From Minisyncoccia bacterium (GTDB lineage: Bacteria > Patescibacteriota > Minisyncoccia > Phycocordibacterales > UBA9973): DNA of 64,000 nt. Shown here piece by piece: positions 20,137 through 61,001 of the stretch (position 1 is the stretch's first letter; every line of letters begins with the position of its first letter). A model generated the notes under the pieces. The model had not been told where the DNA came from. It was given only the letters and a program-made list of their open reading frames with translations, and searched no databases. Where the stretch lies: the NCBI GenBank assembly GCA_049287305.1, contig JBAQFO010000009.1, forward strand, positions 108,558-172,557, written 5' to 3'. Made by a program: the position numbers and the translations under genes.

Positions 20137-20140
20137 AAAT

Positions 20141-20614: not shown

Positions 20615-20673
20615 TTTATATAGATAATATTATAATAAAATTCCTCATTATATTGTAACATATTCCGCCAAAA

Positions 20674-20712: not shown

Positions 20713-20732
20713 ATACACAAACTAAACACTTA

Positions 20733-21149
20733 CTAACAAGCTGTAGTGGCTGTGTTTCCTGTTCTTTCTTTGGAAGCGCCTGTTGAATCCACGCACCAAG
20801 ATTGAGCTGGAACTGTCTTCAAAGGAACAGCTGCTGCCCAAGCGGAAGTACTGTCAAGGCAAAAAGTTGCTCCACCGCTAGCTTGACCCGCTGCAGCAAG
20901 CGCTGCAAGTATATTGGTGTTCGCACATACTCCATCATAACCAACGCTGTCTGTAGGAGTTTCTACTGTATCATAAATCAATTCTGCTTGTGCGCGCATA
21001 TTGGCCAAGTTTGCTTTTACTGCAGCGTCAGCGCCTTTTGCACGCGCTGAGTTCAATGACGCAAGCACCACCGACGCCAATATCCCAATGATAGCAACAA
21101 CCACCAAGAGTTCAATCAGCGTAAAACCTTTCTTTAAATTCATTTTCAT
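20733..21149 (-). CDS. pilA: Type IV major pilin (PilA-like), paralog 2
   Basis: MKMNLKKGFTLIELLVVVAIIGILASVVLAS. The first ~26 codons are nucleotide-identical to paralog 1 and the C-terminal domain diverges. Confidence 0.85.
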   Translation of the reverse strand: MKMNLKKGFTLIELLVVVAIIGILASVVLASLNSARAKGADAAVKANLANMRAQAELIYDTVETPTDSVGYDGVCANTNILAALAAAGQASGGATFCLDSTSAWAAAVPLKTVPAQSWCVDSTGASKERTGNTATTAC

Positions 21150-21312
21150 AATAATTTTTTAATCTTTCAGCCTTTCAGGCCGAACCGCCCATTAGATTAC
21201 GGACGGAAAATAATAATAAAATTCGACTTATTTTTAATGTATTTATTATAGCATATAGCTAAAAATCCATCCGCAAGTCAGTTATCCACAGCTACCCGTA
21301 GAACTGAAAAAT

Positions 21313-22521
21313 CTAGCTAATGCTTCCAGCCATATTGTAGATAGGCATCAGAACGGAAACCAACAGCACCCCAACGCCTAATCCGAGCACAACAATCATC
21401 ACAGGCTCAATAAGGCCTACTAGAGTATCCACCGCATCATCTACTTCTCTTTTGTAAAAATCTGTCATAGTTTTCAAAATAGACCCGAGAGAGCCGGTTT
21501 CTTCTCCTACCATCACCATCTGCACCATAATAGGCGGTATGTGTTCGCTATGCTTTTCAAATGCAGCCGAAAGAGCAAGTCCAGATTTAACCCCCTCTGC
21601 CACTTCCACTAATAGATTTTTATAAACCAGACTCCCCACAACTTCTGCGGTAATGTCTATGGCTCGGACAATAGGCACACCCGAAGAAAGCATGGTGTTT
21701 AAGTTGTCTGTTATTCTGGAAAGATACAATTTCTTATATAAGTCACCAACAGCGGGCACGGAAAGTCTCAATGAGTCCAGATATACTTTCCCTTTTGGGG
21801 TTGTGGTTAATCGCCACACCCAGATAGCCAAAAGCACCAGGAAAATAAGAGCGAAAAAACCATAGTTAACAAAGAAGCTGGAAATACCAATAATTATTTT
21901 GGTAAAGAACGGCACTTCTTGTCCAGAGTCCATAATAATAGCCGCCAGTTTCGGGATGACAACGGTAAACATCAAAGTCATCACGACAAAAAAAGTAATA
22001 ACAACAAAAACTGGGTAGATGAGAGCGTTCTTGGTTTTAGAAGTGAGGGCGTATTGACGGTCTAAATATTCAGCCAAATGCAAAAAAGTTAAGTTTAATT
22101 TTCCGGTTTCTTCTCCCACCTTTACCATGTTTATGTAAAAATCAGAAAACACGTCAGGGTGTCGGGCGAGCGCGCCCGAAATGGAAACCCCGGCTTCCAA
22201 ATCATCCCCTATTTGGGTAAGCTTGCGTCCCAAGAATTTATTCTCGGTGTTTGTGGCAAGCATTGTGAAAGATTTAAGAGCCGAAACTTGCGCTTCAAAT
22301 AAAGTTGCTATTTGGCGTGACAAAACCACCACATCTTTAGCCTTTACTCTTTCAAAGAAAGACATTTGAAAGATGGATTTTTTCTCGGCTTCTTCGTTGA
22401 TAGAAAGAATCACCAGCCCTCGGCGCTGGAGTCCGCTAATGGCTATGTCTTGGTTTGGAGCGTCAATTTCTCCTTCTTTGTTTGCTCCTTCCGCGTCTAT
22501 GGCTTTGTATTTGAATAACAT
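21313..22521 (-). CDS. pilC: Type IV pilus inner-membrane platform protein PilC (GspF family)
   Basis: Duplicated GspF domains (…FSDFYINMVKVGEETGKL… and …IMVQMVMVGEETGSL…) and 3 TM segments. Confidence 0.85.
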   Translation of the reverse strand: MLFKYKAIDAEGANKEGEIDAPNQDIAISGLQRRGLVILSINEEAEKKSIFQMSFFERVKAKDVVVLSRQIATLFEAQVSALKSFTMLATNTENKFLGRKLTQIGDDLEAGVSISGALARHPDVFSDFYINMVKVGEETGKLNLTFLHLAEYLDRQYALTSKTKNALIYPVFVVITFFVVMTLMFTVVIPKLAAIIMDSGQEVPFFTKIIIGISSFFVNYGFFALIFLVLLAIWVWRLTTTPKGKVYLDSLRLSVPAVGDLYKKLYLSRITDNLNTMLSSGVPIVRAIDITAEVVGSLVYKNLLVEVAEGVKSGLALSAAFEKHSEHIPPIMVQMVMVGEETGSLGSILKTMTDFYKREVDDAVDTLVGLIEPVMIVVLGLGVGVLLVSVLMPIYNMAGSIS

Positions 22522-22532
22522 GGCAGAATAAA

Positions 22533-23591
22533 TTAAATCATCCGCTCTAACCCTTTTGGATTAAGCGAATATTGATAAGCGTTTTCAATTGAAATTTCTC
22601 CCGCCCGCACAAGTTCAAGCAGCGAATGGTTTAAGTCAACCATTCCTGACTCGGTACCGGTTTCTATAACTACATCTATTTCGTGGGTGCGTTTTTCCCT
22701 TATAAGATTGGAAACCGCGTTGTTGTTCAGCAAAAGCTCATATGCCGGCACAAGTCCGCCCGCAATCCGGGGAACAAGCCTCTGCGAAAAAATACCGAGA
22801 AGAGAAGCTGCAAGCTGAGAGCGAATCTGGTCCTGCTGGTTCCCTGGGAAGGAATCAATTATTCTATCAATGGTCTGAGAAGCGTTGTTGGTATGAAGGG
22901 TGGAAAGAACGAGGTGCCCTGTTTCCGCCGCCGTAACGGCCGTAGAAATTGTTTCGGGGGTGCGCATCTCCCCTATCATAATTACGTTCACATCTTCGCG
23001 GAAAACTTCTTTAAGAGCAGTGTGGAAATCCTTGGTGTCAATGCCCACCTCTCGCTGGTTAATTATGGATTTGTTCGCGGTGTATACATGTTCTATGGGG
23101 TCCTCAATTGTTATGATATGACGGGCTTGTTCATTGTTTATCAAGTTAACCATTGAAGAAAGAGTTGTGGATTTTCCTTGCCCCACGGGTCCTACAACCA
23201 AGAAAAACCCCTGCTTCTTGCGAGCCAGCTCCGCCAGTATGGGCGGTAAGCGCAACTCAGTCATTGACTGCACTTTGGGAACCAACCGAAAAACAATGTT
23301 TATCAAACCTTTTTGAAAAAACGCATTCCCTCGCAATCTCGCCTCTCCGCGAAAATCATAAGAAAAATCGGCGTCAAAGTTTTCTTTAAAGCTTTCAATT
23401 TTCTTTTCACTTAAAATTTCTGACAAGAATCCCAGCACGTCTTCTTGAGTCAGCACCGGGTGCTTCGCAAGGCTTATAAGCTCTCCTGATACCCTTATGG
23501 AAGGAACCCGTCCAGCGCCCAAGTGGAGGTCTGAGCCGTTTTCTCGTATTACATTTAAAATAAGTTCTTCAAGATTTTTTTTATAGTCCAT
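22533..23591 (-). CDS. pilT: Type IV pilus retraction ATPase PilT
   Basis: N-terminal SDLHLGAGRVPSIRVSGEL, Walker A VVGPVGQGKSTT, Asp box, Walker B IMIGEMR and His box at a PilT-like length (352 aa). Confidence 0.85.
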   Translation of the reverse strand: MDYKKNLEELILNVIRENGSDLHLGAGRVPSIRVSGELISLAKHPVLTQEDVLGFLSEILSEKKIESFKENFDADFSYDFRGEARLRGNAFFQKGLINIVFRLVPKVQSMTELRLPPILAELARKKQGFFLVVGPVGQGKSTTLSSMVNLINNEQARHIITIEDPIEHVYTANKSIINQREVGIDTKDFHTALKEVFREDVNVIMIGEMRTPETISTAVTAAETGHLVLSTLHTNNASQTIDRIIDSFPGNQQDQIRSQLAASLLGIFSQRLVPRIAGGLVPAYELLLNNNAVSNLIREKRTHEIDVVIETGTESGMVDLNHSLLELVRAGEISIENAYQYSLNPKGLERMI

Positions 23592-23595
23592 GGAT

Positions 23596-24006
23596 TTAAA
23601 TATTTACTTTAGGTGCACCTGTTTTATTTTCTAAAATTTTTACTACCTGCGCTATCACTTCAGCGGGAGTGGAATTTGCTTTGACAATATACCCGGCAAC
23701 CCCAAGTCTCCCCCCCTCTTCTACGTCTTTTGGTTCGCTTTTATTGGACAAAATTACTTTCATGCAATTCGGACACAACTTTTCATCATTCATTTTTTGC
23801 ATTGCTTCAAACCCGTTCATCTCTGGCATAATTATATCCATTAATAAAAGATCCGGAGAAAGTCCATTTTTTAATTTATCTAACGCATGAATTCCGCTCG
23901 TAGCCGTATAAACCTCAAAATTATTTTGGCTGAACTTGAGCGCATACATGTCCAAGAGGAAGTTGTCGTCATCAACTATTAAAATTTTTTTCTTATCTTT
24001 GTCCAT
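23596..24006 (-). CDS. Single-domain CheY-like response regulator (receiver only)
   Basis: KILIVDDDNFLLDMY...DLLLMDIIMPEMNGFEAM...K is the receiver fold with the phospho-acceptor Asp context. It sits between pilT and pilB. Confidence 0.75.
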   Translation of the reverse strand: MDKDKKKILIVDDDNFLLDMYALKFSQNNFEVYTATSGIHALDKLKNGLSPDLLLMDIIMPEMNGFEAMQKMNDEKLCPNCMKVILSNKSEPKDVEEGGRLGVAGYIVKANSTPAEVIAQVVKILENKTGAPKVNI

Positions 24007-24068
24007 ATTTTTTGAGTGAGGCCTAATTGATTATACTACAAAACAGGCTCTATGGCACACCAGGCGCG

Positions 24069-25811
24069 TTATTCGTTTTCGTTGTTGAAATTATAAACTT
24101 CAGTAAATGGAATCAATCCTTGCAGAGATTTAAATATGGCGTCTTCCCTCATCATAAGCATGCCATTTTTTCTAGCAACTTTATAAATTTCAGTGTTTAC
24201 GGGATTTTTCAATATTACTGATTGCATTTCCTTGTCCACCTTGAACATTTCAAAGACGGCAATACGTCCTCGGGTGCCGGACGGGCATTCCGCCGACGGA
24301 ACTATTTCATACATTTTGTCCCCTATTTTTGGTTTAAATTTTTCCGGTAAATCTTTTATCTGCTCCTCAACCTGAGTTCTAACGCTTTCGTCTATTGGAA
24401 CTTCTTTCCGACATGCCGGATAGGTCATGCGCGCCAAGCGTTGAGCGATAGATACTATAAGGGTCGGGGCTATTAAATATGGGTCAACGCCCATATCCAC
24501 CAGGCGCGGAATGGCTCCCACGGCGCTATTGGTGTGAAGCGTGGAAAGAACGAGATGACCAGTAAGGGCAGCCTGAATAGCGAGCTGCGCGGTTTCTTTA
24601 TCGCGAATCTCTCCCACCATTATAATATCCGGGTCCTGTCTTAAGATAGACCGGAGTCCCGAAGCAAAAGTGTATCCTATTTCCGGCATCATTTGCGATT
24701 GGTTTATATCAGGCATGTGATATTCCACTGGGTCTTCCAAAGAAACTATGTTGCTGCTTTCTTTGTCAAGCTCATTCATCATGGAATACAGAGTGGTTGA
24801 TTTACCTGAACCCGTAGGTCCGGTAATCAAAATAAGCCCATAAGGTCTTCTTATAGCCTCTCTTAGTATGTTTAAATTAATCTCCGACAAACCAAGTTGG
24901 TCTATAGGTTTAACTCCTTTTTCCGAATCCAATATTCGCATCACAACTTTTTCTCCGTAATATGCAGGCATAGTAGATACGCGAAAATCTATTTTATGGC
25001 CGTCAATGTTGGCACTGAAAGACCCGTCTTGCGGTTTTCGTTTTTCATCAAGCCGGAGTTTTGCCAGTATTTTTACGCGGGCCACAATTCCCCCATACAC
25101 GTTCGGGGGCAAGACTATGGTTGTATGCAGCATACCGTCCACCCGAAAACGCACTTTAACTTTTTCCCCCGTATGTTCTATGTGTATATCAGATGCATTT
25201 CCTTCTATGGCTGTGCGCAGAATAACAGCCACAATCTTTATTACCGGAGCGTCTTCAACTATTTTTTGCTCCTCCCCGGGTTTAACGTTTTTTATTTCCT
25301 TACTGAGATTCTCCTCGCTTAAATTCTTAACATCAGAAAGTTCTTCTTGGGTGATTTCGTCCAAAGCTTCTTCGACTTGGTTGCCTATGCCTCTATAAGT
25401 TTGCATTACGCTGTCGTAGTCGGTCTTTGAAATTAGAAACACTTTAAAAGGAATGCCGATTTTATTTGAAATAAATTGAAGAGCATCCATCGCTTGGAGA
25501 TTTTCCGGGTCCATGACGCCAACTTCCAAAACTCCGTCTTTCAACTCTATGGGCGCAAAATGGTAATGCATAGCCGAATCCTCAGAAATATATTTCAATA
25601 CGTCAAAAGACATTCCTTGAACATCTAGTTTTTTCGTTGGAATACCTAAATATTGCCCCTTTACTTCAAGAAGTTTTTCTTCCGGAATTCCCAGCTCAAC
25701 AAGAACCCCATCTATGTCTCCAGCATAATCCTGCTTTGCGCGATTTTTAATTTCTCCTATTTGGCTTTGGTTGATTATGCCTTTTTTTGCTAATTCTTCT
25801 AAAAAACTCAT
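24069..25811 (-). CDS. pilB: Type IV pilus assembly ATPase PilB (GspE family)
   Basis: N-terminal GspE-N domains, Walker A LITGPTGSGKSTTLY, Walker B IIMVGEIRD, a tetracysteine motif and a 580-aa length. Confidence 0.85.
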   Translation of the reverse strand: MSFLEELAKKGIINQSQIGEIKNRAKQDYAGDIDGVLVELGIPEEKLLEVKGQYLGIPTKKLDVQGMSFDVLKYISEDSAMHYHFAPIELKDGVLEVGVMDPENLQAMDALQFISNKIGIPFKVFLISKTDYDSVMQTYRGIGNQVEEALDEITQEELSDVKNLSEENLSKEIKNVKPGEEQKIVEDAPVIKIVAVILRTAIEGNASDIHIEHTGEKVKVRFRVDGMLHTTIVLPPNVYGGIVARVKILAKLRLDEKRKPQDGSFSANIDGHKIDFRVSTMPAYYGEKVVMRILDSEKGVKPIDQLGLSEINLNILREAIRRPYGLILITGPTGSGKSTTLYSMMNELDKESSNIVSLEDPVEYHMPDINQSQMMPEIGYTFASGLRSILRQDPDIIMVGEIRDKETAQLAIQAALTGHLVLSTLHTNSAVGAIPRLVDMGVDPYLIAPTLIVSIAQRLARMTYPACRKEVPIDESVRTQVEEQIKDLPEKFKPKIGDKMYEIVPSAECPSGTRGRIAVFEMFKVDKEMQSVILKNPVNTEIYKVARKNGMLMMREDAIFKSLQGLIPFTEVYNFNNENE

Positions 25812-25831
25812 AGTTATATTTCAATCTTAAC

Positions 25832-26578
25832 TTAAGGAGTAACTGTAAACTGCCAGCTGCTGGTACTCTTACCTTTGCTGTTTGTTACAAAAAAACTATA
25901 TACTCCTTGCTTCACTGCCTCAGGTTTAGTTAGGCCGAGGGGCGTAACAGATGAAGGAACAGTAAAGACAATGGAACTGCCGTCAGTAGAGTTTATGTTT
26001 TGTATAGGTGATGATTTAAAGCTTACTTTATTGCCAGACTGGCTAAAACCAGAACCGTTGATAGTTACTACCGTTCCGACTGGTCCGGTTAAAGGCGTAA
26101 CAGATGTAATGCTTAGGGGGTCATTAAAATAATTCACGGGTGGATTATTAGTAGAAGGAGGAGCCGTTGGAGGAGAAGGTTCTGTAGGAAGATTGGTTAA
26201 AAGAGGGTCCAAAGAAACCTCCTCCTTATCAGAACCAATCGGTGCAAAAGGGTTCGGCCTTCCCTCTGTTCCGTCAGGCACTAGAACAATACTTGAGTCA
26301 CGAAGACTATTCCAAGCCGTATCCGCAAAAATAGAATCATCCAACTTTATATTTCTCACGCTTAACAACAACGTCAGAAATTCTTGAGCCACAAGGTTTT
26401 GCGTGTTATCTAAAGCTCCTACCGCATTGGTTCCGCCAACATCAGGTAAATTGGAAGACGGCGAAGACGTTACCAGGTTGGTGTCGGGAGCTTCGGGTTT
26501 CTGCACAAAGAATATATATATCAGCACGAAAACCGCTGCAATTGAGACAAATATTATAATGTTTCTAATTTTTGGCAT
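25832..26578 (-). CDS. Membrane-anchored protein with P/T-rich linker and C-terminal IPT/TIG (Ig-like) domain, sitting at the PilP position
   Basis: Single N-terminal TM (IIIFVSIAAVFVLIYIFF), a PSPPTAPPSTNNPP linker, and SITSVTPLTGPVGTVVTINGSGFS...VSF...FTVP, the IPT/TIG pattern. Confidence 0.5.
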   Translation of the reverse strand: MPKIRNIIIFVSIAAVFVLIYIFFVQKPEAPDTNLVTSSPSSNLPDVGGTNAVGALDNTQNLVAQEFLTLLLSVRNIKLDDSIFADTAWNSLRDSSIVLVPDGTEGRPNPFAPIGSDKEEVSLDPLLTNLPTEPSPPTAPPSTNNPPVNYFNDPLSITSVTPLTGPVGTVVTINGSGFSQSGNKVSFKSSPIQNINSTDGSSIVFTVPSSVTPLGLTKPEAVKQGVYSFFVTNSKGKSTSSWQFTVTP

Positions 26579-26604
26579 TTGTTTATCTTAAATGTCTCTC
26601 AATT

Positions 26605-27207
26605 TTAATTCTTCAACCAATAAGTCTTAATGGTAAAGGTGTAATTATATGTATCCGAAGACGGGGCTACCCCAAGCCCAATGGATGGAGCCGTTTTGGA
26701 GGAAAAAACAATGGAGGATATATCTACTATGCGAAGATTGCTTTCCAAGTCTCTCGTGAAATTAATAAAATTATCGTAGCTTCCCGAAGTTGAGAATTCC
26801 AAATCGAAAACTCCGAAGTCTTTATTGGCGTGTTTTGGCGTCCCCCCGGGCAAGACTCCCTGTGGTTTCGTTGGGTCAGTTACTTTTGTTTCTGTGTTGT
26901 ATTTAACGTCTTTTAGACTCATGCCATAAGGCGCGGCTATCTGTTCTATTTCTAGAATCAAGCGAATATTGTCAACGTTTTGTGGTAGAAACCTTGTTAA
27001 TTTATTCAAGTTTTCAGGGTTTATGGAGTTGAACTTAGCTGTCAATTTATCTCGTTCGCTTTCCAGCATCTTTGAATTGCCAAGTGCTTCGTTATAAGAT
27101 GCAACTTCCGCGTTCAGCACCTTTATTTCATTGAAAATAGGATTTGCGAACACGAAAAAAACAGCTATCGCGATTCCTATTAAAATAATCGGCATTATGA
27201 ATTTCAT
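26605..27207 (-). CDS. pilO: PilO-like pilus assembly protein
   Basis: N-terminal TM, coiled-coil region, PilO-like C-terminal domain and its position after pilN. Confidence 0.6.
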   Translation of the reverse strand: MKFIMPIILIGIAIAVFFVFANPIFNEIKVLNAEVASYNEALGNSKMLESERDKLTAKFNSINPENLNKLTRFLPQNVDNIRLILEIEQIAAPYGMSLKDVKYNTETKVTDPTKPQGVLPGGTPKHANKDFGVFDLEFSTSGSYDNFINFTRDLESNLRIVDISSIVFSSKTAPSIGLGVAPSSDTYNYTFTIKTYWLKN

Positions 27208-27212
27208 AAACT

Positions 27213-27809
27213 TTAAATATCTGCTGAAATCGTTTGTTTGTAATTAACAAAATTTGAATCAACGGAAAAATCCAAATCAAAAACAACATTGCCGTCATTG
27301 TCCAGCGTTAAGTTTGAAAAAATCGGGTCAATCATGTTTTTGTTTTGAGCGAAAATATCTGACTGCAGAGCTATAGAACGATATCCGACCGCTACTCCGG
27401 ACATTTGGACAGAAACAACGGAATCTTGGTCGTCTTCCAAAGTGTAGGTAAACCTGGTGAAGCCCACCGTCTTCATGGTTGTTTTTTCAAGCAATTCAAA
27501 AATAGGAGTTATGGAAATGTGATTTGCTAAAATTTCACTGGAGGCGCGGAGTCTTTTGTCTAAAACTTGAAGCTCTGAAATCTTGGAGGGCTCAAAGCGG
27601 TTCTGCGCCAAAGTTAAATCATTTTCCATTTTCGCGATTCTCTTCGCCGCAATTCCTTTGTAAAAATAAAGCCCACCGGAAGCAAGTAAAACAGTAAACA
27701 AAAGCAGTAAAGATATGATGAGCAAAAGGCTGACGGGACGCGACGAAGTATCACGTTCCTTGATGATAGGTTTTTTAGGTATAAATGATGTTTGAAAATT
27801 TTGCTCCAT
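27213..27809 (-). CDS. pilN: PilN-like pilus assembly protein
   Basis: Single TM (LLLIISLLLLFTVLLASGGLYFY) followed by a coiled coil, positioned after pilM. Confidence 0.6.
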   Translation of the reverse strand: MEQNFQTSFIPKKPIIKERDTSSRPVSLLLIISLLLLFTVLLASGGLYFYKGIAAKRIAKMENDLTLAQNRFEPSKISELQVLDKRLRASSEILANHISITPIFELLEKTTMKTVGFTRFTYTLEDDQDSVVSVQMSGVAVGYRSIALQSDIFAQNKNMIDPIFSNLTLDNDGNVVFDLDFSVDSNFVNYKQTISADI

Positions 27810-27842
27810 TTTCCTTGTTCAATACTTATTACATTATCGCAC

Positions 27843-28970
27843 TTATTGTAATTTTCGCAATGCCAAACCGAGAGCAACGGCAAATTCGGGGCCCATAGAT
27901 AGAAGAACCTTCTCCAGGAAAGCCGGAGCCTCAACTTTGGAAAACGGACGCCCCGTCTCAATCTCGGCGCGGAAGTTATTTGCCGCCACTTCCTTTAGGC
28001 CTTTTAGGAGAGCTCCCCCTCCGGTGAATATTACCTTGCTGATAGTTCTGTCATTTCTCTTTTCGTATCCTAATAATACATTATTTGTTTCTGAAAAGAT
28101 ATAATCTATGTGCACTTTTATGATATCCGCCAAGGTTTTTTCCGCAGGATTCCCAAAAAGACCAAAATCCTTTTTCATTTTCTCGGCGTCGGCAAAAGGG
28201 ATGCTTAGTGATTTGGAAATGGAGTTAGTTATGTCAGCTCCTCCTCGGTCTATGGTGTGATAACCTTTGACCATGCCAAACTCCACGATAGAAAGTTTGG
28301 TGCGTGAAGCTCCAAAATCCATCAAGAGAACCGGAGAGAGTTCGTGTTCAAAATTCGCGCGAATGGAAGAAAATATTTCAATTTCAAAAAAAGCAGGTGT
28401 TAAGTCGCACTGCGACAGAATGGAACGCTGTTTCCCTACCGCTTCGTTTTGCGTAGCGACGACCAGCACATTTATTTTGTCCACAGGAACTAGTGGCAAA
28501 TCCGGATTGTTCATTTCCTCAAAAGACTGTTCTCGTTTTGGAAGCACGAAATAGTCTATGGACACCTCGGTGATAGGAACCGGAATATATTTGCGGGCTT
28601 CCGTGGGAACTATGGACGCTATTTCGTCTTCACTTATTTGCGCCGGCAGGTCAATAATGAAAATTAAACTTGATTGGATGGGAACAGAAAGAGCCACGTT
28701 CTGCCCTGTTACGCCGGATTGTTTTAGGACTTCCTTGAGAGCAAGAGCGGATTTTTCCACCGACAGATTAGTGGCCTGTCCGGCTTCAATATCCGCATAA
28801 GGGCCAAGCGCTATGGCTCCGTATGTCTCCAGCACCGCCTTGCCTCCTTTTCTTTTGATTTCCACTACCTTTATGGATGAAGACCCAATATCAATTCCAA
28901 TAGCGGAATCCGATGCTCCCCCTCCCGCCTTATTAAAACCTGAAAAAATATTTTTTAGCAAATTACTCAT
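27843..28970 (-). CDS. pilM: PilM, actin-like ATPase of the type IV pilus alignment complex
   Basis: IGIDIGSSSIKVVEI... is the actin/FtsA-like fold, and the gene is the first in the pilMNO run. Confidence 0.8.
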   Translation of the reverse strand: MSNLLKNIFSGFNKAGGGASDSAIGIDIGSSSIKVVEIKRKGGKAVLETYGAIALGPYADIEAGQATNLSVEKSALALKEVLKQSGVTGQNVALSVPIQSSLIFIIDLPAQISEDEIASIVPTEARKYIPVPITEVSIDYFVLPKREQSFEEMNNPDLPLVPVDKINVLVVATQNEAVGKQRSILSQCDLTPAFFEIEIFSSIRANFEHELSPVLLMDFGASRTKLSIVEFGMVKGYHTIDRGGADITNSISKSLSIPFADAEKMKKDFGLFGNPAEKTLADIIKVHIDYIFSETNNVLLGYEKRNDRTISKVIFTGGGALLKGLKEVAANNFRAEIETGRPFSKVEAPAFLEKVLLSMGPEFAVALGLALRKLQ

Positions 28971-51623: not shown

Positions 51624-52184
51624 CTATTTATCTGTTCCGGTTTTGAAACTCAAATTTGGAGGTGTAACTTTGTTTTGTTCGGCACCATATTGGCTTTGTA
51701 TTTTTTGTGTTACAGGATCTTTTAGTTCCGCAAAAACCATCATAGCAACAGGGTCTTTATATTTTAATCGAATCCTTAAATTCCCGACATTTTTTATTTC
51801 TAGCACAACCACATGAGGAGCCTCAAAGGTTCCATCCGCAATTGATGCGGTTATATGTGTCGTTATGCCAAGTCGAGCAACAGTACTCCTGCCGTCTAAA
51901 ATAGCCAATATATTTGCTGGTGTTTGTATTGCTTCATAGGTGGCTCCAAGAATAAACCCGCCTGGTTCTAGGTAGAACTCTTCTTTTGTTAAATCTATTT
52001 CCTGGTAAGTAGGGCTTTGTGTGCCACTTATCTCAACAGTCTGGTTTGGTTCCGGGACCAGAATATCTTTCGCAAGATGAATTCTTATTCCAACCGGCCG
52101 GATATTTTTCTTATCAAATTCCGGCCTTATTATAAGTGTCCCGTCATCTATATATTTCTCAATTGTTTGATGTGATAAAAACAT
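51624..52184 (-). CDS. dcd: dCTP deaminase (dUTPase superfamily)
   Basis: MFLSHQTIEKYIDDGTLIIRP...GIRIHLAKD and the dUTPase-fold motifs (GRSTVARLGI). Confidence 0.8.
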   Translation of the reverse strand: MFLSHQTIEKYIDDGTLIIRPEFDKKNIRPVGIRIHLAKDILVPEPNQTVEISGTQSPTYQEIDLTKEEFYLEPGGFILGATYEAIQTPANILAILDGRSTVARLGITTHITASIADGTFEAPHVVVLEIKNVGNLRIRLKYKDPVAMMVFAELKDPVTQKIQSQYGAEQNKVTPPNLSFKTGTDK

Positions 52185-52809: not shown

Positions 52810-53394
52810 CTATTCGTCTACTCCGAAACGCTTGTAGTCGTAAGTTTTTCCTTCACCAAACCAGTGTTTTATTTCGTGTTCTGCTTCTTCTGGGGTCTCC
52901 GAACAGTGAATTATATTCATAACTGCTCTTTTTTCCTTGTTAGCCAGCGCGGGAGAATCTATGGAAAAGTCTCCGCGAATGGTGCCTACAGCGGCAAGGT
53001 ATGGCATGGTTTCTCCCGCGATTTTCCTGACTACATCAACCGCGTGTATCCCCTGCACAACTATCTTCACCAAAGGAGAAGTTTTCATGTAGTCAATAAG
53101 CCATTTGCGAATTTCAGGACCGATAACAGCAGCGTCCATAGTGCCAAAGTCCAACATCGCGTCATACCCGTATTTCTCGTAGGTAGAAAGAGTTTTTTTG
53201 CCGAGTCTGGTAATCCACTCTTCGTTTTTGGGATAATGATTGTCTAAAAGTTCATGGGAAGGCTGAAACATTTCCAGCGCCACAATTTTCAAGTCACGCT
53301 TCTCAAACCGCGCGATTATTTCTCCGGTTAGTCCTTTACGAACCCCGTCCGGCTTTATCATTACATACGTTTTTTCTTCTTTTGGCTGCTTCAT
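52810..53394 (-). CDS. ndk: Nucleoside diphosphate kinase (with insertions; 194 aa)
   Basis: TYVMIKPDGVRKGLTGEIIARFEKRDLKIVALEM is the NDK N-terminus, and the active-site His region (NIIHCSETPEEAEHEIKHWF) is present. Confidence 0.8.
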   Translation of the reverse strand: MKQPKEEKTYVMIKPDGVRKGLTGEIIARFEKRDLKIVALEMFQPSHELLDNHYPKNEEWITRLGKKTLSTYEKYGYDAMLDFGTMDAAVIGPEIRKWLIDYMKTSPLVKIVVQGIHAVDVVRKIAGETMPYLAAVGTIRGDFSIDSPALANKEKRAVMNIIHCSETPEEAEHEIKHWFGEGKTYDYKRFGVDE

Positions 53395-53416: not shown

Positions 53417-53800
53417 TTAAATTTGTAAATTTTCTATCATTCCTTCTATTCTGGCAACCTTGTCTCTAAAATTCATCCAGGCAATTTTCTTAGTCATCTC
53501 CACATTACTGTCACCGGCACTTCTCATTTTTTCTATTGTGCGTAAATCTTTTATCCATTTTTTATATGCCGCCTGCAGTTCATCCTTTATTTTCTTGTCC
53601 GTCGGTATTTGTTTATTTTTAAAAATTGTTTCAGCTTTTGCTTTTAATTCTTGTTCTAACTCTTTCAGTTTTAACCTTAGCTCGTCGGGGTCTTGAGGCA
53701 ATTCTGGTCTTGGCTCAGGATTCTCTTCCTCCGGGGAACTTTTCTTTGGTTCCACGGTCGGACCAGTAATACCAGAAGGCCATTTTTCTCCTGTGTTCAT
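53417..53800 (-). CDS. Hypothetical coiled-coil protein with Pro/Glu-rich N-terminus
   Basis: No family recognised; it sits immediately downstream of the HerA-like ATPase gene. Confidence 0.4.
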   Translation of the reverse strand: MNTGEKWPSGITGPTVEPKKSSPEEENPEPRPELPQDPDELRLKLKELEQELKAKAETIFKNKQIPTDKKIKDELQAAYKKWIKDLRTIEKMRSAGDSNVEMTKKIAWMNFRDKVARIEGMIENLQI

Positions 53801-53845
53801 AAGCCTTATTCTATCAGAAAAAATCTGCTTTGTAAAATTTTGTTT

Positions 53846-56608
53846 TTATTCCATTGAGGTGTATCGCGCCATGATTTCCGCCTCTACTTCTTCTCGGTCT
53901 CGGCCGAATTTTACGTAGGAAAGTTCTTTGAGACTGTCTACGATATCCATGTTCCCCTTCTCGGCATCCAAAGTTCTTAAATTAAAGGGCTTTGTAGGTT
54001 GGCCGTTAACCAACATGCTCATGTAAGCTTCGCGGTTATTGAGTTTGGTAATATCGTGCGCAGAAAACTGCGGTTTGAACTTTGGTTCTAAGAACGTAGC
54101 GTCTTCTGTTCCCACTCGGAACACTGCCATAGACCCAACGTTACCGAAAACTGCGTTTTTGATATTCTCTTCAAGTTGAGTTATATATTGGTGCGCAATG
54201 TTAAGAGACAGTCTGTATTTTCTCGCTTCAGACAAAATAGAAGCGATGGAGTCGGTAGTAACGTTTTGGAATTCGTCAATGTATAAGTAGAAATCATTCA
54301 TTGGCTTGCCGAACATGTCTACTCTGGACAAAGCCGCCATTTGGATTTTACCTACCAGCACAAGACCGATTAAATTAGCGTTTATATCACCAAGTCTCCC
54401 TTTTGAAAGATTAACAAGCAATATTTTTTTCTCGTCCATAATCTTTCGGAAATTGAAAACCGAATTTTGCTGAAGCACTACCGGCCGCATGATGTCGTTG
54501 GAAATAAAGTTATCAAATTTGGATGAGATATAAGGCACGAAGTTCGCAAGCGACTGGTCCCCTGTCGTCTGCTCGGCAGAAATCCAAAATTGCTTAATAA
54601 TGGGATTCTTGCATTTTGCTAATTTCATATCCCGAAATTCTTTATCGCCAAGGACACGAGTAATTTCAAGCAAAGTAGAACCGGATTCTGGGTCTTCCAT
54701 CACCAAGAAGGCGCTGTTTCGGAAATATTGTTCAAACATGGCGCCTCCTCCAACCTTCATGTCAAAAAGCTTGTTGAAAATTCCCATCATTTCGTTAACT
54801 ACGAAAGTTTTCTGCTCCGGATATTTCGGGTCGTATTCAAGCATGTTTAGCCCCATTGGACGCGCCGTGTAAGCAGGGTCAAAATATATGACATCATCAA
54901 TTCGTTCTTTGGGAATACGGGAAAGTATTGTCTGAATATCGGTGCCGTGCGGGTCAATGTAGCAGCATCCATCGCCGTTTTTTATATCCTGGGTAATCAT
55001 GTTGAGCATAATGTTGGTCTTACCGGTTCCGGTCTGACCTATCACATACATATGTCGCATTCTGTCTTCGCGAGCCAGATGTATCTCGGTATCCCGCCCA
55101 CGGTAACTGTTTATTCCCAAAACTATACCTTCCTGCCCCATTTCAATAGGGGCCGGAGCAATCCCCGCCTTGGCTTCTTTAAGCTGAGGCTGGCTGCCAA
55201 TTCCAATCGGGAAATGAAACACCGAGGCCAGTTCCTTTAAATTCATCGGTAAGGCTTTATCGGAAGCGAATGTTCGGAAAGAGAAGTCGTGAAAAAGTTT
55301 CTTCAAACCACTTCCATTTACCTGTTCAAAAATCAAGGAATTGCTGGCTGCTTCGGAGAATTGATTAAAGGACGACTCTATCTCCTTTAAAATTCCTTCC
55401 GCGCGTTCCTTGGTTTCTCCGGAGGCAATTACCCGGATGTTGGCTTTCATTATTGTGCTTTTTATTTTATTGCCAATTTTCTCCACTGCCCCTTCATCCA
55501 CCGCGCGTCGTCCCTTCATGTTTTTATCTGTTTTTTCAACTTCCGGTTTTCCTCCGAAAATCAAATCCTTACTTACCTTGGTGAGGGCTCTGTGAAATTT
55601 GTAGAAGTTATCCGCGGCATGTTTTACGGCCATACCGTCCTTAACATCATCCAAAATGATGTGAAACTCATTTATAAATTTATCTCCTGCGGGAGCGATA
55701 ACGAACTGGATGGCTGCGCCTTCCCCTGTCTTTTGGAGCTTGGAAAACACGTTCAAAATCACATTCATCGGGTCGTGTTCTATATTGTCGTATGTTTTGA
55801 GCGGCATCACGGCTCTTTCGGTAAATGAAGCGTATGCTCCCACCGAACCGCCATTTTCATTAAAAATATTATAGTCATCGGTAGCTTCGCGAATTTTCGC
55901 ATTATGATAGAAGGCGGAAATTTGTTTTTCAAAAAGAGATGTGTATTTATTGGGAATAGCCGCGTATATCACCACTTCGTCGTTTTGGTTTCCCAAAGCC
56001 ACCTCAAGAGTGAAGTAATTTTCTTCTTTATTCGCTTTTCCTTCCGAGATAGACTGCATCCCGGCGTAAAACTGCTCCATGGCGCCGATGAATTCTTTAA
56101 AGTTTTTTGATTTGTCAGCTTCATCTTCCGGCGGAGGGAGAGTTATTTCAAAAAGAGTCATATTTAAAGCTTTATAAACAGGATTGCCTTCTTTAAAATC
56201 TGATATGACCTGCCCCGTTTTCAAATATTGAACTAGAAGCCGATGGAAGTCATCGTCTATGTGCGCGCTATTCATTGCCTCTACCACGGAAAGAGCGTTG
56301 CGAATTCCCTTGGTTATAACTATGCCCAAAAGTTCTTCCATTACACTATCGTGGGGCTCTGGTTTAAGAGCCAATACTATGTTTTCCGTATCGTTTGCAC
56401 TCAAAACATTGTCTGTGTGAAGAACTTGCTCCGTTGGAATATTCTTATATTCCCCGATAACCTCCTCTGCCGCTTTTTCGGTGGCGTGTTCTACATGCCC
56501 GATTTTTATGAGTTCTTCTTCCTTTGATTTAACATGCGCGCGTAAATAATCCAACTCCTCTTCAGGAGTCTTAAATCTCGGCATTTCTTTAAAGAATGAC
56601 GGTTCCAT
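53846..56608 (-). CDS. HerA/DUF87 (FtsK-HerA superfamily, VirB4/TraD-related) P-loop ATPase with a ~500-aa unrecognised N-terminal domain
   Basis: Walker A VIGQTGTGKTN followed by the HerA-type IDPHG motif, Walker B LYIDEFQN, a C-terminal region like T4SS/HerA DNA-translocase C-domains, and no TM segments. The N-terminal 1-500 has no recognisable motif. Confidence 0.6.
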   Translation of the reverse strand: MEPSFFKEMPRFKTPEEELDYLRAHVKSKEEELIKIGHVEHATEKAAEEVIGEYKNIPTEQVLHTDNVLSANDTENIVLALKPEPHDSVMEELLGIVITKGIRNALSVVEAMNSAHIDDDFHRLLVQYLKTGQVISDFKEGNPVYKALNMTLFEITLPPPEDEADKSKNFKEFIGAMEQFYAGMQSISEGKANKEENYFTLEVALGNQNDEVVIYAAIPNKYTSLFEKQISAFYHNAKIREATDDYNIFNENGGSVGAYASFTERAVMPLKTYDNIEHDPMNVILNVFSKLQKTGEGAAIQFVIAPAGDKFINEFHIILDDVKDGMAVKHAADNFYKFHRALTKVSKDLIFGGKPEVEKTDKNMKGRRAVDEGAVEKIGNKIKSTIMKANIRVIASGETKERAEGILKEIESSFNQFSEAASNSLIFEQVNGSGLKKLFHDFSFRTFASDKALPMNLKELASVFHFPIGIGSQPQLKEAKAGIAPAPIEMGQEGIVLGINSYRGRDTEIHLAREDRMRHMYVIGQTGTGKTNIMLNMITQDIKNGDGCCYIDPHGTDIQTILSRIPKERIDDVIYFDPAYTARPMGLNMLEYDPKYPEQKTFVVNEMMGIFNKLFDMKVGGGAMFEQYFRNSAFLVMEDPESGSTLLEITRVLGDKEFRDMKLAKCKNPIIKQFWISAEQTTGDQSLANFVPYISSKFDNFISNDIMRPVVLQQNSVFNFRKIMDEKKILLVNLSKGRLGDINANLIGLVLVGKIQMAALSRVDMFGKPMNDFYLYIDEFQNVTTDSIASILSEARKYRLSLNIAHQYITQLEENIKNAVFGNVGSMAVFRVGTEDATFLEPKFKPQFSAHDITKLNNREAYMSMLVNGQPTKPFNLRTLDAEKGNMDIVDSLKELSYVKFGRDREEVEAEIMARYTSME

Positions 56609-57508: not shown

Positions 57509-58195
57509 TTAAGATATTATTGTGCCAGAAAATTTTTCTCCGTTTAAACATTTTGCCAAATTATCTATCGGTTTGCCATTCATTATCATGACACTGATAC
57601 CGCCTTCTTCCGCTGCTTTTGACGCAATAGGGTCAAAAGGAGTGCTCAATCCAGCCGAAGTCCACTCTTTTGGAATTAGATTCCGATAGTCTGGCCAAGA
57701 AATTGTCTCAAGTTTCTTGGCGTTAGAATTTAACTTAGGGTCAGAATCGTAAACGTGGTCTATGTTGGATAGGTTTATTATCTTTTTTGCCCCAACGGTC
57801 TTTGCGGCCAAGACCGCATCAAAGTCAGAGCTATGACCAGGCTCAAGCGCGCCACCTATTACAATCGGCTTATTCAAAGGAAAAGGCTTTGATAGGTCAG
57901 TAATTACCTTACTTAAGGCTTGTTCGTTGAAAACCACCCGCAACAACTCGGCATTCAAGTTGTTTGTGGCAATTCCTATCCAGTCCAGATTTTCTTTTGA
58001 AGCGGGGGTAATTTCGTTGGCGGTATTTTGATAGTTCCTGCAAGTCCTCCCTCCTCCGGTAATGATTACAAATTTTCTTCCTGAAGATACGTGGTTAAGT
58101 ATCAAGTTTTTAAATTCTTTCAGAAAATTTATATCCAAGCTGTCAGGAACAATCATAGACCCCCCAAGTGAAATAATTATTGTTTCTTCTGTCAT
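57509..58195 (-). CDS. pyrH: Amino-acid-kinase family protein, archaeal-type UMP kinase-like
   Basis: IIISLGGSMI...FVIITGGGRTCRNY...IVIGGALEPGHSSDFDAVLAAKTVGAKKIINLSNIDHVYDSDP matches the archaeal PyrH pattern (GG..R.Y / GG..PG.S.D / TNVDGVY..DP). Confidence 0.55.
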   Translation of the reverse strand: MTEETIIISLGGSMIVPDSLDINFLKEFKNLILNHVSSGRKFVIITGGGRTCRNYQNTANEITPASKENLDWIGIATNNLNAELLRVVFNEQALSKVITDLSKPFPLNKPIVIGGALEPGHSSDFDAVLAAKTVGAKKIINLSNIDHVYDSDPKLNSNAKKLETISWPDYRNLIPKEWTSAGLSTPFDPIASKAAEEGGISVMIMNGKPIDNLAKCLNGEKFSGTIIS

Positions 58196-60119: not shown

Positions 60120-60422
60120 TTATCTAACCAGAATTTTTTTACCTTTTACCCCGAGACGCTTTCGGATTTCAGAAAACTTTTCGCCCTTGGAAGCCAGCTT
60201 GTCTTTTTCCACCATAAGGACTTTTTGAATGGACTTGAACTGATACCCCCTGTTCTTGGGCAGTTTTTTAATGATATCACGAAGTTCCGGGCGGCGTTTG
60301 TTCCCGGCCCGAGCTGTCTGCCCCTTGCCTCCTCGGCCGGAGGTTTTGGCATGTTTGCCTCCTCGGCCAACCAGCCTGTCTCCTTTGTTTTTATGAACTC
60401 TTTTTAAATTATGTATCTGCAT
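60120..60422 (-). CDS. rplO: 50S ribosomal protein L15 (short form)
   Basis: G/R/K-rich N-terminus GRGGKHAKTSGRGGKGQTARAG, positioned upstream of secY. Confidence 0.85.
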   Translation of the reverse strand: MQIHNLKRVHKNKGDRLVGRGGKHAKTSGRGGKGQTARAGNKRRPELRDIIKKLPKNRGYQFKSIQKVLMVEKDKLASKGEKFSEIRKRLGVKGKKILVR

Positions 60423-60434
60423 ATCTTTTGTTTA

Positions 60435-61001
60435 TTATTTTATTTCTTCGGGTGTAACCACGACCTCTTTGTTGGCAACTACGGTTGTTTCCGGAGCTGC
60501 TTTTGTGTATTTGGAAGAAATTTGCGAAAGAGCCGCCATAACTGCCTTGGCGTTGTTTAGTTTATTTTTGCTGTTAGACAATATTTTACCGGTAATATCT
60601 TTCATCCCCGATAGCTTGATTATGTCTCGAATAACGGAGCCAGCAACAAGTCCTCTTCCTTTGTTGGGCAAAAGCATAATGCTTGAGCTTGAGAATTTTG
60701 CGGAAAGTTCGTGAGGGATAGACATAGTCTTGGAAAGATTTAGTTTCACCATGTTTTTCTTCGCGTTTCTGAGAGCTTTGTTAATAGCGAGAGCTGTGTC
60801 TCCCGCTTTCCCCAAACCTAATCCCACACTGCCTTTCTTGTCTCCAGCCACAAGGGCCACGCTAAAAGAAAAACGGCGCCCTCCTGCCACGACACGAGTT
60901 ACTCTTCGTATATCCAATATCTTCTGGTCAAACTCCGGCTTTACTCTGTTGAAAGAGGATGAGCGGCGTCCAGTATTCTTTTTTTCAATTCTTTTTTCCA
61001 T
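60435..61001 (-). CDS. rpsE: 30S ribosomal protein S5
   Basis: dsRBD-like N-domain (RVTRVVAGGRRFSFSVALVAGDKKGSVGLGLGKA) and the S5 C-domain. Confidence 0.9.
   Translation of the reverse strand: MEKRIEKKNTGRRSSSFNRVKPEFDQKILDIRRVTRVVAGGRRFSFSVALVAGDKKGSVGLGLGKAGDTALAINKALRNAKKNMVKLNLSKTMSIPHELSAKFSSSSIMLLPNKGRGLVAGSVIRDIIKLSGMKDITGKILSNSKNKLNNAKAVMAALSQISSKYTKAAPETTVVANKEVVVTPEEIK

What the first reader, a model, noticed from the sequence alone, without database searches (positions are those of the whole stretch)
53417..56608. HerA/DUF87-type ATPase with a 500-aa unrecognised N-terminal domain, followed by a small coiled-coil protein
The C-terminal half has the FtsK-HerA superfamily signature (GQTGTGKTN…IDPHG, then LYIDEFQN) seen in HerA, VirB4-type conjugation ATPases and HerA-containing anti-phage systems (Sir2-HerA, DUF4297-HerA). 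It has no TM helices. The N-terminal 500 residues match nothing I recognise. The next gene encodes a 127-aa Pro/Glu-rich coiled-coil protein. No conjugation partners (VirB6/VirD4/relaxase) are nearby. The pair lies between nucleotide-metabolism genes and the map-secY block, which fits a stand-alone defence or DNA-translocation module rather than a T4SS.
Basis: partly seen in the sequence, partly recalled or inferred. Interest (0 to 1): 0.6.

Follow-up and report, generated by a model that had tools for sequence, protein, structure and literature searches.

The report
Orphan VirB4-like secretion ATPase, Patescibacteria
The 920-residue protein is not an anti-phage HerA module but a conserved core gene of ultra-small Patescibacteria: a soluble motor ATPase related to type IV secretion ATPases, with a built-in adaptor that its relatives encode as a separate small gene, and what it moves is still unknown.

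Summary
Both ORFs exist as described: 53846-56608(-), 920 aa, and 53417-53800(-), 127 aa. The motifs are present and there is no TM helix. The defence-pair reading fails.

The ATPase half is closest to type IV coupling proteins (TrwB, DotL), not HerA. The "unrecognised" N-terminus has two parts:
- Residues 1-144 are homologous to a ~115-190 aa soluble protein. In membrane-anchored paralogues this protein is a separate gene just upstream of the ATPase. Reciprocal HMM searches support a gene fusion.

The gene is a core gene. It is 84-88% identical across Nomurabacteria-like genomes, about as conserved as SecY. The order secY-adk-map-ATPase-ndk holds in most of 80 species.

The 127-aa ORF has no homologue anywhere (0 of 81 loci; only itself among 5.8 billion proteins). 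It is a lineage-specific insert, not a partner.

An orthologue is already listed in the literature as an orphan "T4CP homologue" of Patescibacteria, encoded away from virB4.

Function is unknown. Most likely it is a hexameric translocation or assembly motor working with the patescibacterial envelope machinery.

The parts
53846..56608 (-). Gene for the 920-aa three-module ATPase (adaptor module, VirB4-NTD-like DUF8128, T4CP-like P-loop motor)
   Evidence: ORF. Identical protein P0001 is named 'TraM recognition domain-containing protein [Minisyncoccia bacterium]' and carries PF26449. AF2 model has pLDDT 83.2.
56177..56608 (-). aa 1-144: helical adaptor module. It has an N-terminal 'EEEL..LR..KE.EL' helix and a conserved core around aa 86-133 (KGI.NAL......H.DDDFHR.LV). 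It is homologous to a separate small protein encoded upstream of the TM-anchored paralogues.
   Evidence: An HMM of this segment hits 28 small ORFs at E<1e-3 (best 5e-17) among 3,170 six-frame ORFs of 82 paralogue loci. All lie upstream on the ATPase strand, 25 of them within 151 nt. The reciprocal HMM hits only the fused ATPases, window E 9.6e-9. hhalign 73% probability, E 3e-5. Alignment. No Pfam family.
55199..56176 (-). aa 145-470: DUF8128 domain with the fold of the VirB4/TrwK N-terminal domain
53849..55138 (-). aa 491-920: T4CP-like P-loop ATPase domain. Walker A is at nt 55016-55039, Walker B at 54263-54286, the Arg-finger motif SEARKY at 54215-54232 and the AHQ sensor at 54185-54196.
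   Evidence: Pfam and NCBIfam hits. PDB profile hits TrwB 5e-4 and DotL 7e-4. Foldseek TM on TrwB 0.65-0.69. Residue mapping: K530=K136, D778/E779=D356/E357, R796=R375, Q807=Q386 of TrwB. Coordinates checked.
54434..54814 (-). aa 599-725: all-helical insertion between Walker A and Walker B, at the position of the all-alpha domain of T4CPs and the helical bundle of VirB4
   Evidence: Secondary structure of the AF2 model shows helices only over 599-725. Near-full-length alignment to TrwB-deltaN70.
53417..53800 (-). 127-aa ORFan, a lineage-specific insert between the ATPase and ndk. It is not a conserved partner.
   Evidence: 0 of 81 related loci by tblastn. Only itself in the 5.8-billion-protein search. 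ATPase and ndk are directly adjacent in 33 of 55 relatives. Coding-like codon usage and low GC.
53808..53836 (-). Promoter-like site (TTTACA-17-TAGAAT with TG) just upstream of the 127-aa ORF
   Evidence: Consensus scan, 10 of 12 matches. This is a consensus match only and its function was not tested.

Best explanation
The 920-aa protein is a chromosomally fixed, Patescibacteria-specific member of the VirB4/VirD4 branch of FtsK-HerA ATPases. It has three modules:
- aa 1-144, a helical adaptor;
- aa 145-470, a VirB4-type N-terminal domain (Pfam DUF8128);
- aa 491-920, a coupling-protein-like P-loop motor with an intact Walker A lysine, Walker B Asp-Glu, arginine finger and sensor glutamine.

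Shown here: the architecture, the fold assignments, the adaptor fusion, the core-gene conservation and synteny, and the absence of any conserved link to the downstream 127-aa ORF.

Inferred: like its structural relatives it assembles into a ring (hexamer) and uses ATP hydrolysis in trans to drive translocation or assembly. The VirB4-like domain and adaptor mediate oligomerisation and docking. The soluble fused form docks peripherally, as VirB4 does on VirB3. The paralogues carry their own N-terminal membrane anchor and a free adaptor.

My preferred specific reading is that it is the missing second ('coupling-type') ATPase of the patescibacterial type IV secretion-like envelope machine, which is encoded elsewhere in the genome. 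I put the classification and architecture at about 0.85-0.9 and this specific mechanism at about 0.4.
For: Structure:
- Foldseek agrees.
- The full-length model aligns to TrwK over about 900 columns at E 4e-13, and to TrwB with TM 0.65-0.69.

Sequence:
- TrwB and DotL are the best PDB sequence hits.
- hhalign to TrwB gives 93.6%.
- TrwB_AAD_bind and TraG-D_C match 20 of 22 family members.
- Catalytic residues are conserved in 90% or more of members.

Adaptor fusion:
- Supported by forward and reciprocal HMM searches with positional specificity and an independent look-up.
- The paralogues have an N-terminal hydrophobic segment with KD 2-3.5.

Core-gene status:
- 84-88% identity over 920 aa, equal to SecY and above Map in the same loci.
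- map upstream in 52 and ndk downstream in 55 of 81 loci.

Literature:
- Orthologue KKS24372.1 is listed as T4CP (profile t4cp1, 88% coverage, not near virB4), and its genome has a separate VirB4.
- Patescibacterial T4SS clusters lack a recognisable coupling protein (PMC10633639).
- In S. epibionticum a 'TraM recognition domain' protein of similar length, with a small upstream ORF, is essential.
Against: - Never encoded with T4SS genes. There are none in this window, and only 148 of 5,713 patescibacterial T4CP-like genes lie near virB4 (PMC12102498).
- T4CP-like genes occur in more genomes (2,918) than VirB4 does (2,417), so at least some function without a detectable T4SS, or those MAGs are incomplete.
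- One S. epibionticum homologue (SEML1_0293, 921 aa) is non-essential although the T4SS is essential.
- The VirB4-NTD relationship is seen only at fold level. There are no Pfam VirB4 family hits, and hhalign to TrwK gives only 8-12%, limited to the P-loop.
- The oligomeric state and the substrate were not tested.
Confidence: 0.45

Rival explanations
1. The same protein acts independently of any T4SS. It would be a housekeeping cytoplasmic or membrane-proximal nucleic-acid translocase, for example in chromosome segregation or repair, or in handling imported DNA or RNA for nucleotide salvage. The VirB4-like domain would have been exapted as an oligomerisation or docking module.
For: - Fixed synteny with housekeeping and nucleotide-metabolism genes (adk, map, ndk, CYTH, beta-CASP nuclease, SLOG).
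- A dnaX-like gene lies downstream of the TM-anchored paralogues in 17 of 63 loci.
- T4CP-like genes are present in more genomes than VirB4, and the authors say exaptation 'cannot be ruled out'.
- FtsK-HerA members commonly translocate DNA (established knowledge).
Against: - Neighbourhood associations are weak and non-specific. holA was found upstream in only 1 of 60 loci and there is no conserved downstream partner.
- No DNA-binding domain was recognised.
- Both recognisable domains have their closest relatives in T4SS ATPases.
Confidence: 0.33
2. A stand-alone anti-phage defence module of HerA type, in which the N-terminal domain or the 127-aa protein is the effector or partner.
For: - PADLOC hits: mad8 9.7e-12 and HerA 4.6e-7, over the P-loop region only.
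- HerA structures appear among Foldseek hits at 2e-11.
Against: - The gene is a core gene with SecY-like conservation and fixed synteny in 80 species. Defence genes are typically variable.
- There is no HAS-barrel. The N-terminus has the VirB4-NTD fold, not Sir2, a nuclease or TIR.
- The 127-aa ORF is an ORFan.
- No PADLOC partner was found among 10 neighbours.
- DUF87 scores below the Pfam gathering threshold.
Confidence: 0.03
3. A canonical conjugative coupling protein or VirB4 of an integrated mobile element, with its partners elsewhere.
For: T4CP family matches. [quoted passage not shown]
Against: - No TM anchor.
- No relaxase or MPF genes in the window.
- Vertical, syntenic inheritance with no composition anomaly (GC 0.427 versus 0.43-0.46 for neighbours).
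- Scores far below the curated NCBIfam cut-offs, for example 45.9 versus 366 bits for SXT_TraD.
- Most patescibacterial T4SS clusters lack relaxases.
Confidence: 0.03

Closest known systems
VirB4 (TrwK of plasmid R388; PDB 7o42, 7o43, 8rtd)
   Different: There is no sequence-level membership: no CagE_TrbE_VirB or AAA_10 hits, and hhalign to TrwK gives 8-12%. It is not encoded with VirB3, VirB6 or VirB8. It has an extra N-terminal adaptor module. The same genomes carry a separate bona fide VirB4.
Type IV coupling proteins (TrwB, VirD4, TraD, DotL)
   Same: This is the closest sequence relationship for the ATPase domain. The Walker A and B motifs, Arg finger and Gln sensor are conserved and map onto TrwB residues. 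TM-score on TrwB is 0.65-0.69. An orthologue is classed as T4CP by CONJScan profile t4cp1.
   Different: It has no N-terminal TM domain. It has a 490-aa N-terminal extension that T4CPs lack. It has no relaxase or T4SS neighbourhood. It is a core chromosomal gene rather than a mobile-element gene.
HerA (archaeal HerA-NurA; Sir2-HerA and DUF4297-HerA defence systems)
   Same: Same superfamily P-loop. DUF87 matches 19 of 22 family members at E<=0.01. Foldseek E 2e-11 to 4d2i.
   Different: No HAS-barrel. TM-score on target is lower (0.43-0.53 versus 0.65-0.69 for TrwB). No nuclease, Sir2 or DUF4297 partner. Not in a variable defence context.
Orphan 'T4CP homologues' of Patescibacteria (Quinonero-Coronel et al. 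2025, PMC12102498)
   Same: This is that class. KKS24372.1 (87% identical) is in their Table S3 as T4CP, not near virB4.
   Different: The paper treats them as VirD4 homologues. In the passages I searched (term searches for VirD4, T4CP and DUF8128) it does not describe the VirB4-like N-terminal domain, the lack of a TM anchor in this subgroup, or the adaptor fusion. No held paper mentions DUF8128.

Membership tests
Pfam DUF8128 (PF26449) family | Match to the PF26449 profile | tested here: met
   The precomputed Pfam annotation of the 100%-identical protein P0001 and of all 120 listed homologues gives PF26449. It is named DUF8128. The local Pfam copy lacks this model.
Type IV coupling protein (VirD4/TraD/TrwB) | FtsK-HerA-type NBD with Walker A, Walker B, Arg finger and Gln sensor | tested here: met
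   K530, D778/E779, R796 and Q807 align to TrwB K136, D356/E357, R375 and Q386. They are 90% or more conserved. TraG-D_C scores 24.6 (threshold 22) and TrwB_AAD_bind 23.3 (threshold 20.5). hhalign gives 93.6%.
Type IV coupling protein (VirD4/TraD/TrwB) | N-terminal transmembrane anchor | tested here: not met
   Maximum KD19 is 1.54, located in the ATPase core. The N-terminus is hydrophilic and helical. The paralogous short form does have an anchor.
Type IV coupling protein (VirD4/TraD/TrwB) | All-alpha domain inserted in the NBD | tested here: inconclusive
   The model shows a 127-residue all-helical insertion at aa 599-725, and alignment to TrwB is near full length. No residue-level alignment of the AAD was available, and VirB4 has a helical bundle at the same position.
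Type IV coupling protein (VirD4/TraD/TrwB) | Encoded with a relaxase or mating-pair-formation genes; curated family score | tested here: not met
   There are no such genes among the ~40 window ORFs scanned. In the 80 relatives, tblastn recovers the window's housekeeping genes within +-6 kb of the ATPase, but these flanks were not themselves searched for relaxase or MPF genes. NCBIfam scores are 16-46 bits against cut-offs of 250-800.
VirB4 | VirB4-type N-terminal domain followed by a RecA-like C-terminal ATPase | tested here: met
   [not shown]
VirB4 | Sequence membership (Pfam CagE_TrbE_VirB or AAA_10; CONJScan virb4) | tested here: not met
   No such hits at E<=1 for the window protein, or at E<=0.01 for 22 members. 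hhalign to TrwK gives 8-12%. The orthologue is listed as T4CP, and a different protein in that genome is the VirB4.
VirB4 | Clustered with VirB3, VirB6 or VirB8-type inner-membrane components | tested here: not met
   The neighbours are housekeeping genes in the window. In relatives, tblastn recovers the same housekeeping block around the gene, but these flanks were not searched for VirB3, VirB6 or VirB8 families. Divergent small CPR T4SS proteins could escape Pfam.
HerA | N-terminal HAS-barrel plus DUF87 core above threshold | tested here: not met
   DUF87 scores 21.1, below the gathering score of 23.2. The N-terminal model has no barrel-type hits and its fold is the VirB4 NTD.
HerA-based defence systems (Sir2-HerA, DUF4297-HerA, MADS) | Adjacent effector or partner genes; variable presence among relatives | tested here: not met
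   PADLOC on the 127-aa protein and 10 neighbours finds nothing relevant. The gene is present and syntenic in all relatives examined.
Hexameric ring translocase (functional class) | Ring assembly and substrate-stimulated ATPase activity | not testable with these tools
   No multimer prediction or biochemistry was available. This is inferred from the conserved trans-acting arginine (R796) and homology to TrwB and VirB4.

The most novel reading that the evidence does not exclude
DUF8128 ATPases, together with their adaptor (free or fused), form a third and so far unrecognised lineage of the VirB4/VirD4 motor family. It would be universal and partly essential in Patescibacteria, combining a VirB4-type docking domain with a coupling-protein-type motor. 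It would be either the missing substrate-coupling ATPase of the essential patescibacterial T4SS, or a T4SS-independent nucleic-acid import or processing motor underlying the epibiotic, nucleotide-scavenging lifestyle. As a VirB4-NTD plus T4CP-like-CTD hybrid it might also bear on how VirB4 and VirD4 diverged.
Probability: 0.3. Interest if true: 0.75.

Novelty: new variant of a known kind. Interest (0 to 1): 0.45.

Why it matters
Patescibacteria are a large fraction of bacterial diversity. They depend on hosts, and in the one genetically tractable species they need a T4SS for growth. That T4SS lacks a recognisable coupling protein.

Nearly every patescibacterial genome carries 'orphan T4CP homologues' of unknown role. 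This analysis adds three points about one major class of them:
- It has a VirB4-like N-terminal domain.
- It comes in a soluble fused form and a membrane-anchored split form.
- It has a dedicated small adaptor protein with no Pfam family.

Together these give concrete, testable hypotheses about partners, docking and essentiality. They also give a functional handle on two unannotated families, DUF8128 and the adaptor. The analysis also removes a false lead, since this is not a defence system.

Tried and rejected
- Defence reading. PADLOC on the two proteins and on 10 neighbours gave only P-loop-level hits (mad8, HerA) and no partners. Rejected.
- The 127-aa ORF as partner. Pfam, NCBIfam and PADLOC gave nothing. 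The homologue search found only the protein itself. tblastn found it in 0 of 81 loci. Rejected as a conserved partner.
- Sequence-level link of DUF8128 to VirB4. hhalign of A2 and A1 against R388 TrwK gave 8-12% probability, P-loop only. The link rests on fold only.
- Conserved neighbours of the TM-anchored paralogues. dnaX lies downstream in 17 of 63 loci. holA, fpg and S20 were each found upstream in only 1 of 60 loci. Downstream ORFs do not form a conserved family; the largest cluster is 12 of 61 and is GtrA-like. No further system component was found.
- The upstream ORF in L083 did not match the adaptor profile.
- The afdb50 fold library was unavailable.
- A literature search for DUF8128 and for the S. 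epibionticum locus tags found nothing.
Full report
**Observation.** The window carries a 920-aa ORF at 53846-56608(-) and a 127-aa ORF at 53417-53800(-).
- The large protein has GQTGTGKT (aa 524), IDPHG (551), LYIDEFQN (775), SEARKY (793), AHQY (805) and FGNVG (821).
- It has no hydrophobic segment that reaches TM level. The highest 19-residue Kyte-Doolittle mean is 1.54, inside the ATPase core.
- About 40 ORFs of the window were scanned, covering every ORF of 110 aa or more within about 25 kb on the low-coordinate side; the ribosomal-protein ORFs between secY and the window end were not scanned. None matches a relaxase or a T4SS family. A complete type IV pilus cluster lies about 25-37 kb away.
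Two details need correcting. The N-terminus does have a Pfam family, and the small protein's coiled coil is unverified.

**Whose genome, and how conserved.** The identical protein is deposited as 'TraM recognition domain-containing protein [Minisyncoccia bacterium]'.
- The best 120 homologues are 84-88% identical over the full 920 residues. They come from Nomurabacteria/Paceibacteria MAGs, and all carry PF26449 = DUF8128.
- A scan of one genome per species returned 80 loci with 87% to 51% identity.
- In these loci plus L001, tblastn finds map upstream in 52 of 81, ndk downstream in 55, secY in 38, the beta-CASP gene in 51 and L20 in 36. Most of the missing cases are truncated contigs or the most distant species.
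- ATPase and ndk are directly adjacent (<250 nt) in 33 of 55 loci, and map and the ATPase (<400 nt) in 27 of 52. The other loci have variable inserts.
- In the closest relatives the ATPase is 83-86% identical. This is as conserved as SecY (80-84%) and more conserved than Map (72-80%).
- This is the signature of a vertically inherited core gene, not of a defence island.

**The small ORF.** The 127-aa protein has no tblastn hit in any of the 81 loci, and only itself in the 5.8-billion-protein search.
- It has no hit in Pfam, NCBIfam or PADLOC.
- Its codon usage is coding-like in frame, but its GC (37.8%, GC3 34%) is below that of its neighbours.
- A promoter-like TTTACA-17-TAGAAT sits directly upstream.
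- It is best read as a lineage-specific insert at a position where relatives carry other inserts (LysE in L001). It is not a partner of the ATPase.
- dcd is likewise absent from all related loci.

**The ATPase half.**
- For the window protein, Pfam gives TraG-D_C and TrwB_AAD_bind just above their gathering scores and DUF87 just below. Across 22 diverse family members, the counts are TrwB_AAD_bind 20, TraG-D_C 20, DUF87 19 and T4SS-DNA_transf 5 (best 7.8e-12), with no VirB4 family.
- NCBIfam's best hits are TraD/VirD4-type models, far below their cut-offs.
- Against PDB sequences, the family profile hits TrwB (5e-4) and DotL (7e-4) ahead of HerA. hhalign to R388 TrwB gives 93.6% probability, and to TrwK only 8%.
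- The HMM alignment maps K530, D778/E779, R796 and Q807 onto TrwB K136, D356/E357, R375 and Q386. These residues are invariant or 90% or more conserved, so the enzyme should be active and should use a trans-acting arginine, as ring ATPases do.
- The AF2 model (pLDDT 83.2) superposes on TrwB-deltaN70 with a TM-score on target of 0.65-0.69. For HerA the value is 0.43-0.53.
- The model shows an all-helical insertion at aa 599-725 between the Walker motifs.

**The N-terminal 490 residues.**
- A search with aa 1-490 against 1.84 billion representatives found 1,021 clusters at E<=1e-3. Full-length members are 800-1,100 aa, so the region is always fused to this ATPase.
- An N-terminus-only AF2 model (42-sequence alignment, pLDDT 84.2, pTM 0.69) was compared with the PDB by two methods.
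  - Foldseek gives ten TrwK chains at E 2.5e-5 to 4.8e-3, and nothing else below 0.027.
- With the full-length model, TrwK chains are the top hits (E about 4e-13) and align over about 900 columns, which covers both domains.
- So aa 145-470 (DUF8128) has the fold of the VirB4 N-terminal domain, and the protein as a whole has the VirB4 two-domain plan.
- This link is structural only. No VirB4 sequence family or TrwK profile comparison detects it.
- No Sir2, nuclease, TIR or HAS-barrel fold is present.

**The first 144 residues are a fused adaptor.** Some family members are shorter and start with a hydrophobic helix instead of aa 1-144.
- A metagenome scan with these short forms gave 80 loci. With L082 and L083 that makes 82 loci.
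- Nearly all complete short-form proteins (about 780-860 aa) have a strongly hydrophobic N-terminal segment (KD 2-3.5) immediately before DUF8128, so they are membrane-anchored.
- An HMM of the window-type extension (aa 1-144) was searched against all 3,170 six-frame ORFs of 40 aa or more in these loci. It hit 28 ORFs at E<1e-3 (best 5e-17). All are 115-192 aa, on the ATPase strand and upstream of it, and 25 end within 151 nt of its start. After one iteration, 34 of 82 loci have such a gene.
- The small proteins have no TM segment.
- They share two features with the window protein: the N-terminal 'EEEL..LR..KE.EL' helix, and the motif KG(I/L)..A(L/I)......NP(H/Y)..D(D/E)FH(R/D).LV, which corresponds to window aa 86-133 (hhalign 73%, E 3e-5).
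- Reciprocally, an HMM built only from the 28 small proteins was searched against all ORFs of the 81 long-form loci plus the window. It hits only the fused ATPases (79 hits, window E 9.6e-9) and no separate small ORF.
- A database search with the small-protein alignment found 370 or more clusters. All of the 120 listed are 129-170 aa, carry no Pfam domain, and are either unnamed or carry only a generic or evidently automatic name.
- In three of three places looked up, the next gene is a PF26449 ATPase.
- This is a classic gene-fusion (Rosetta-stone) relationship. The family exists in two forms: [adaptor] + [TM-DUF8128-ATPase], or [adaptor-DUF8128-ATPase] without a TM helix. The window has the fused form.

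**What is already known.** Quinonero-Coronel et al. 2025 (PMC12102498) report 5,713 VirD4-type T4CP homologues in 2,918 of 3,035 Patescibacteria genomes.
- Only 148 of these are near virB4, and VirB4 itself is found in 2,417 genomes. The authors note that exaptation 'cannot be ruled out'.
- Their Table S3 lists KKS24372.1, which is P0021 and 87% identical to the window protein, as T4CP (profile t4cp1, 88% coverage, not near virB4). The same genome has a separate VirB4.
- Wang et al. 2023 (PMC10633639) state that the essential T4SS of Southlakia epibionticum lacks recognisable coupling and relaxase proteins.
- Their Tn-seq table shows two similarly annotated genes:
  - SEML1_0142 (3,060 nt, 'TraM recognition domain-containing protein') is essential at all time points. 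It is preceded on the same strand by SEML1_0141, a 420-nt hypothetical gene scored GD/ES/ES.
  - SEML1_0293 (2,766 nt; PF10412, PF12696 and PF01935, the same three families as here) is non-essential.
- The 0141/0142 arrangement looks like the adaptor-plus-ATPase pair. I could not test orthology.
- No held paper mentions DUF8128. In the passages I searched, I found no description of the VirB4-like domain or of the adaptor.

**Mechanism.**
- Shown: a three-module, catalytically intact, soluble ATPase of the VirB4/VirD4 clade. It is a core, syntenic gene. The adaptor module is an autonomous unit that selection keeps next to, or fused to, the ATPase.
- Inferred from established knowledge of TrwB, VirB4 and other FtsK-HerA motors: ring assembly with ATP hydrolysis at subunit interfaces, driving translocation or assembly.
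- Also inferred: the N-terminal domain is used for oligomerisation and docking, as the VirB4 N-terminal domain docks on VirB3 and VirB8 tails in the R388 inner-membrane complex.
- My preferred specific model (about 0.4) is that this is the coupling-type second ATPase of the patescibacterial T4SS-like machine.
- The main rival (about 0.33) is a T4SS-independent nucleic-acid motor. It is favoured by the housekeeping synteny and by the excess of genomes with T4CP-like genes over genomes with VirB4.
- Defence and mobile-element readings are each about 0.03.

**Verdict.** The defence-pair interpretation is not supported.
- The gene belongs to a family already catalogued (DUF8128; 'orphan T4CP homologues').
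- Its architecture is an unusual variant of known T4SS ATPases: a VirB4-type N-terminal domain, a T4CP-like motor and a fused adaptor, with no membrane anchor.
- Function remains unknown.
- Interest is moderate. It is a useful lead for Patescibacteria cell biology, not a new kind of system.

Noticed in passing
window 16354-28970 (-): A complete type IV pilus gene cluster. It comprises PilM, a PilB-like ATPase, a response regulator, PilT, PilC, two pilins, a prepilin peptidase, three minor-pilin-like ORFs and a Laminin_G_3 protein.
   Followed up: partly
window 51624-52184 (-): The dCTP-deaminase-like gene has no tblastn hit in any of the 81 related loci. Like the 127-aa ORF, it is a lineage-specific insertion in an otherwise conserved block.
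   Followed up: partly
window 57509-58195 (-): An AA_kinase-family gene (228 aa) sits between adk and map at the end of the ribosomal-protein/secY operon. It is present in 29 of 81 related loci.
   Followed up: no
window 60120-61001 (-): No L30 gene lies between the ORF I read as S5 (60435-61001) and secY. Between them is only a 100-aa basic ORF (60120-60422) that matches no Pfam family; I take it to be a short L15. Neither the S5 nor the L15 assignment was tested on the window; both rest on the gene order in L001, where a 100-aa protein with no Pfam hit sits between Ribosomal_S5 and SecY. Loss of L30 is known for this radiation, as far as I recall.
   Followed up: no
window 52810-53394 (-): The NDK is unusually long (194 aa), and its Pfam NDK match is split into two stretches. 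In several close relatives the gene directly after the ATPase is only 30-44% identical to it, which suggests two divergent NDK types at this position.
   Followed up: no
L085-L164, L082, L083 (short-form loci): The membrane-anchored DUF8128 ATPases have a dnaX-like gene downstream on the same strand in 17 of 63 loci. In two independent contexts (three loci, L165-L167), fpg and holA lie upstream of the adaptor-ATPase pair. There is no conserved downstream partner.
   Followed up: partly
window protein aa 145-470 (nt 55199-56176): The VirB4-NTD-like domain keeps invariant E202, D245, G297 and Q301, and near-invariant K381 and R392, across 42 diverse sequences. This hints at a specific ligand or partner site whose nature is unknown.
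   Followed up: no
L001 8465-9855 and 12797-13432: In an 84%-identical relative, two extra genes (363 and 98 aa, no Pfam) lie between map and the ATPase, and a LysE gene takes the place of the 127-aa ORF. The flanks of the ATPase gene therefore act as insertion hot spots.
   Followed up: partly
[not shown]
   Followed up: no
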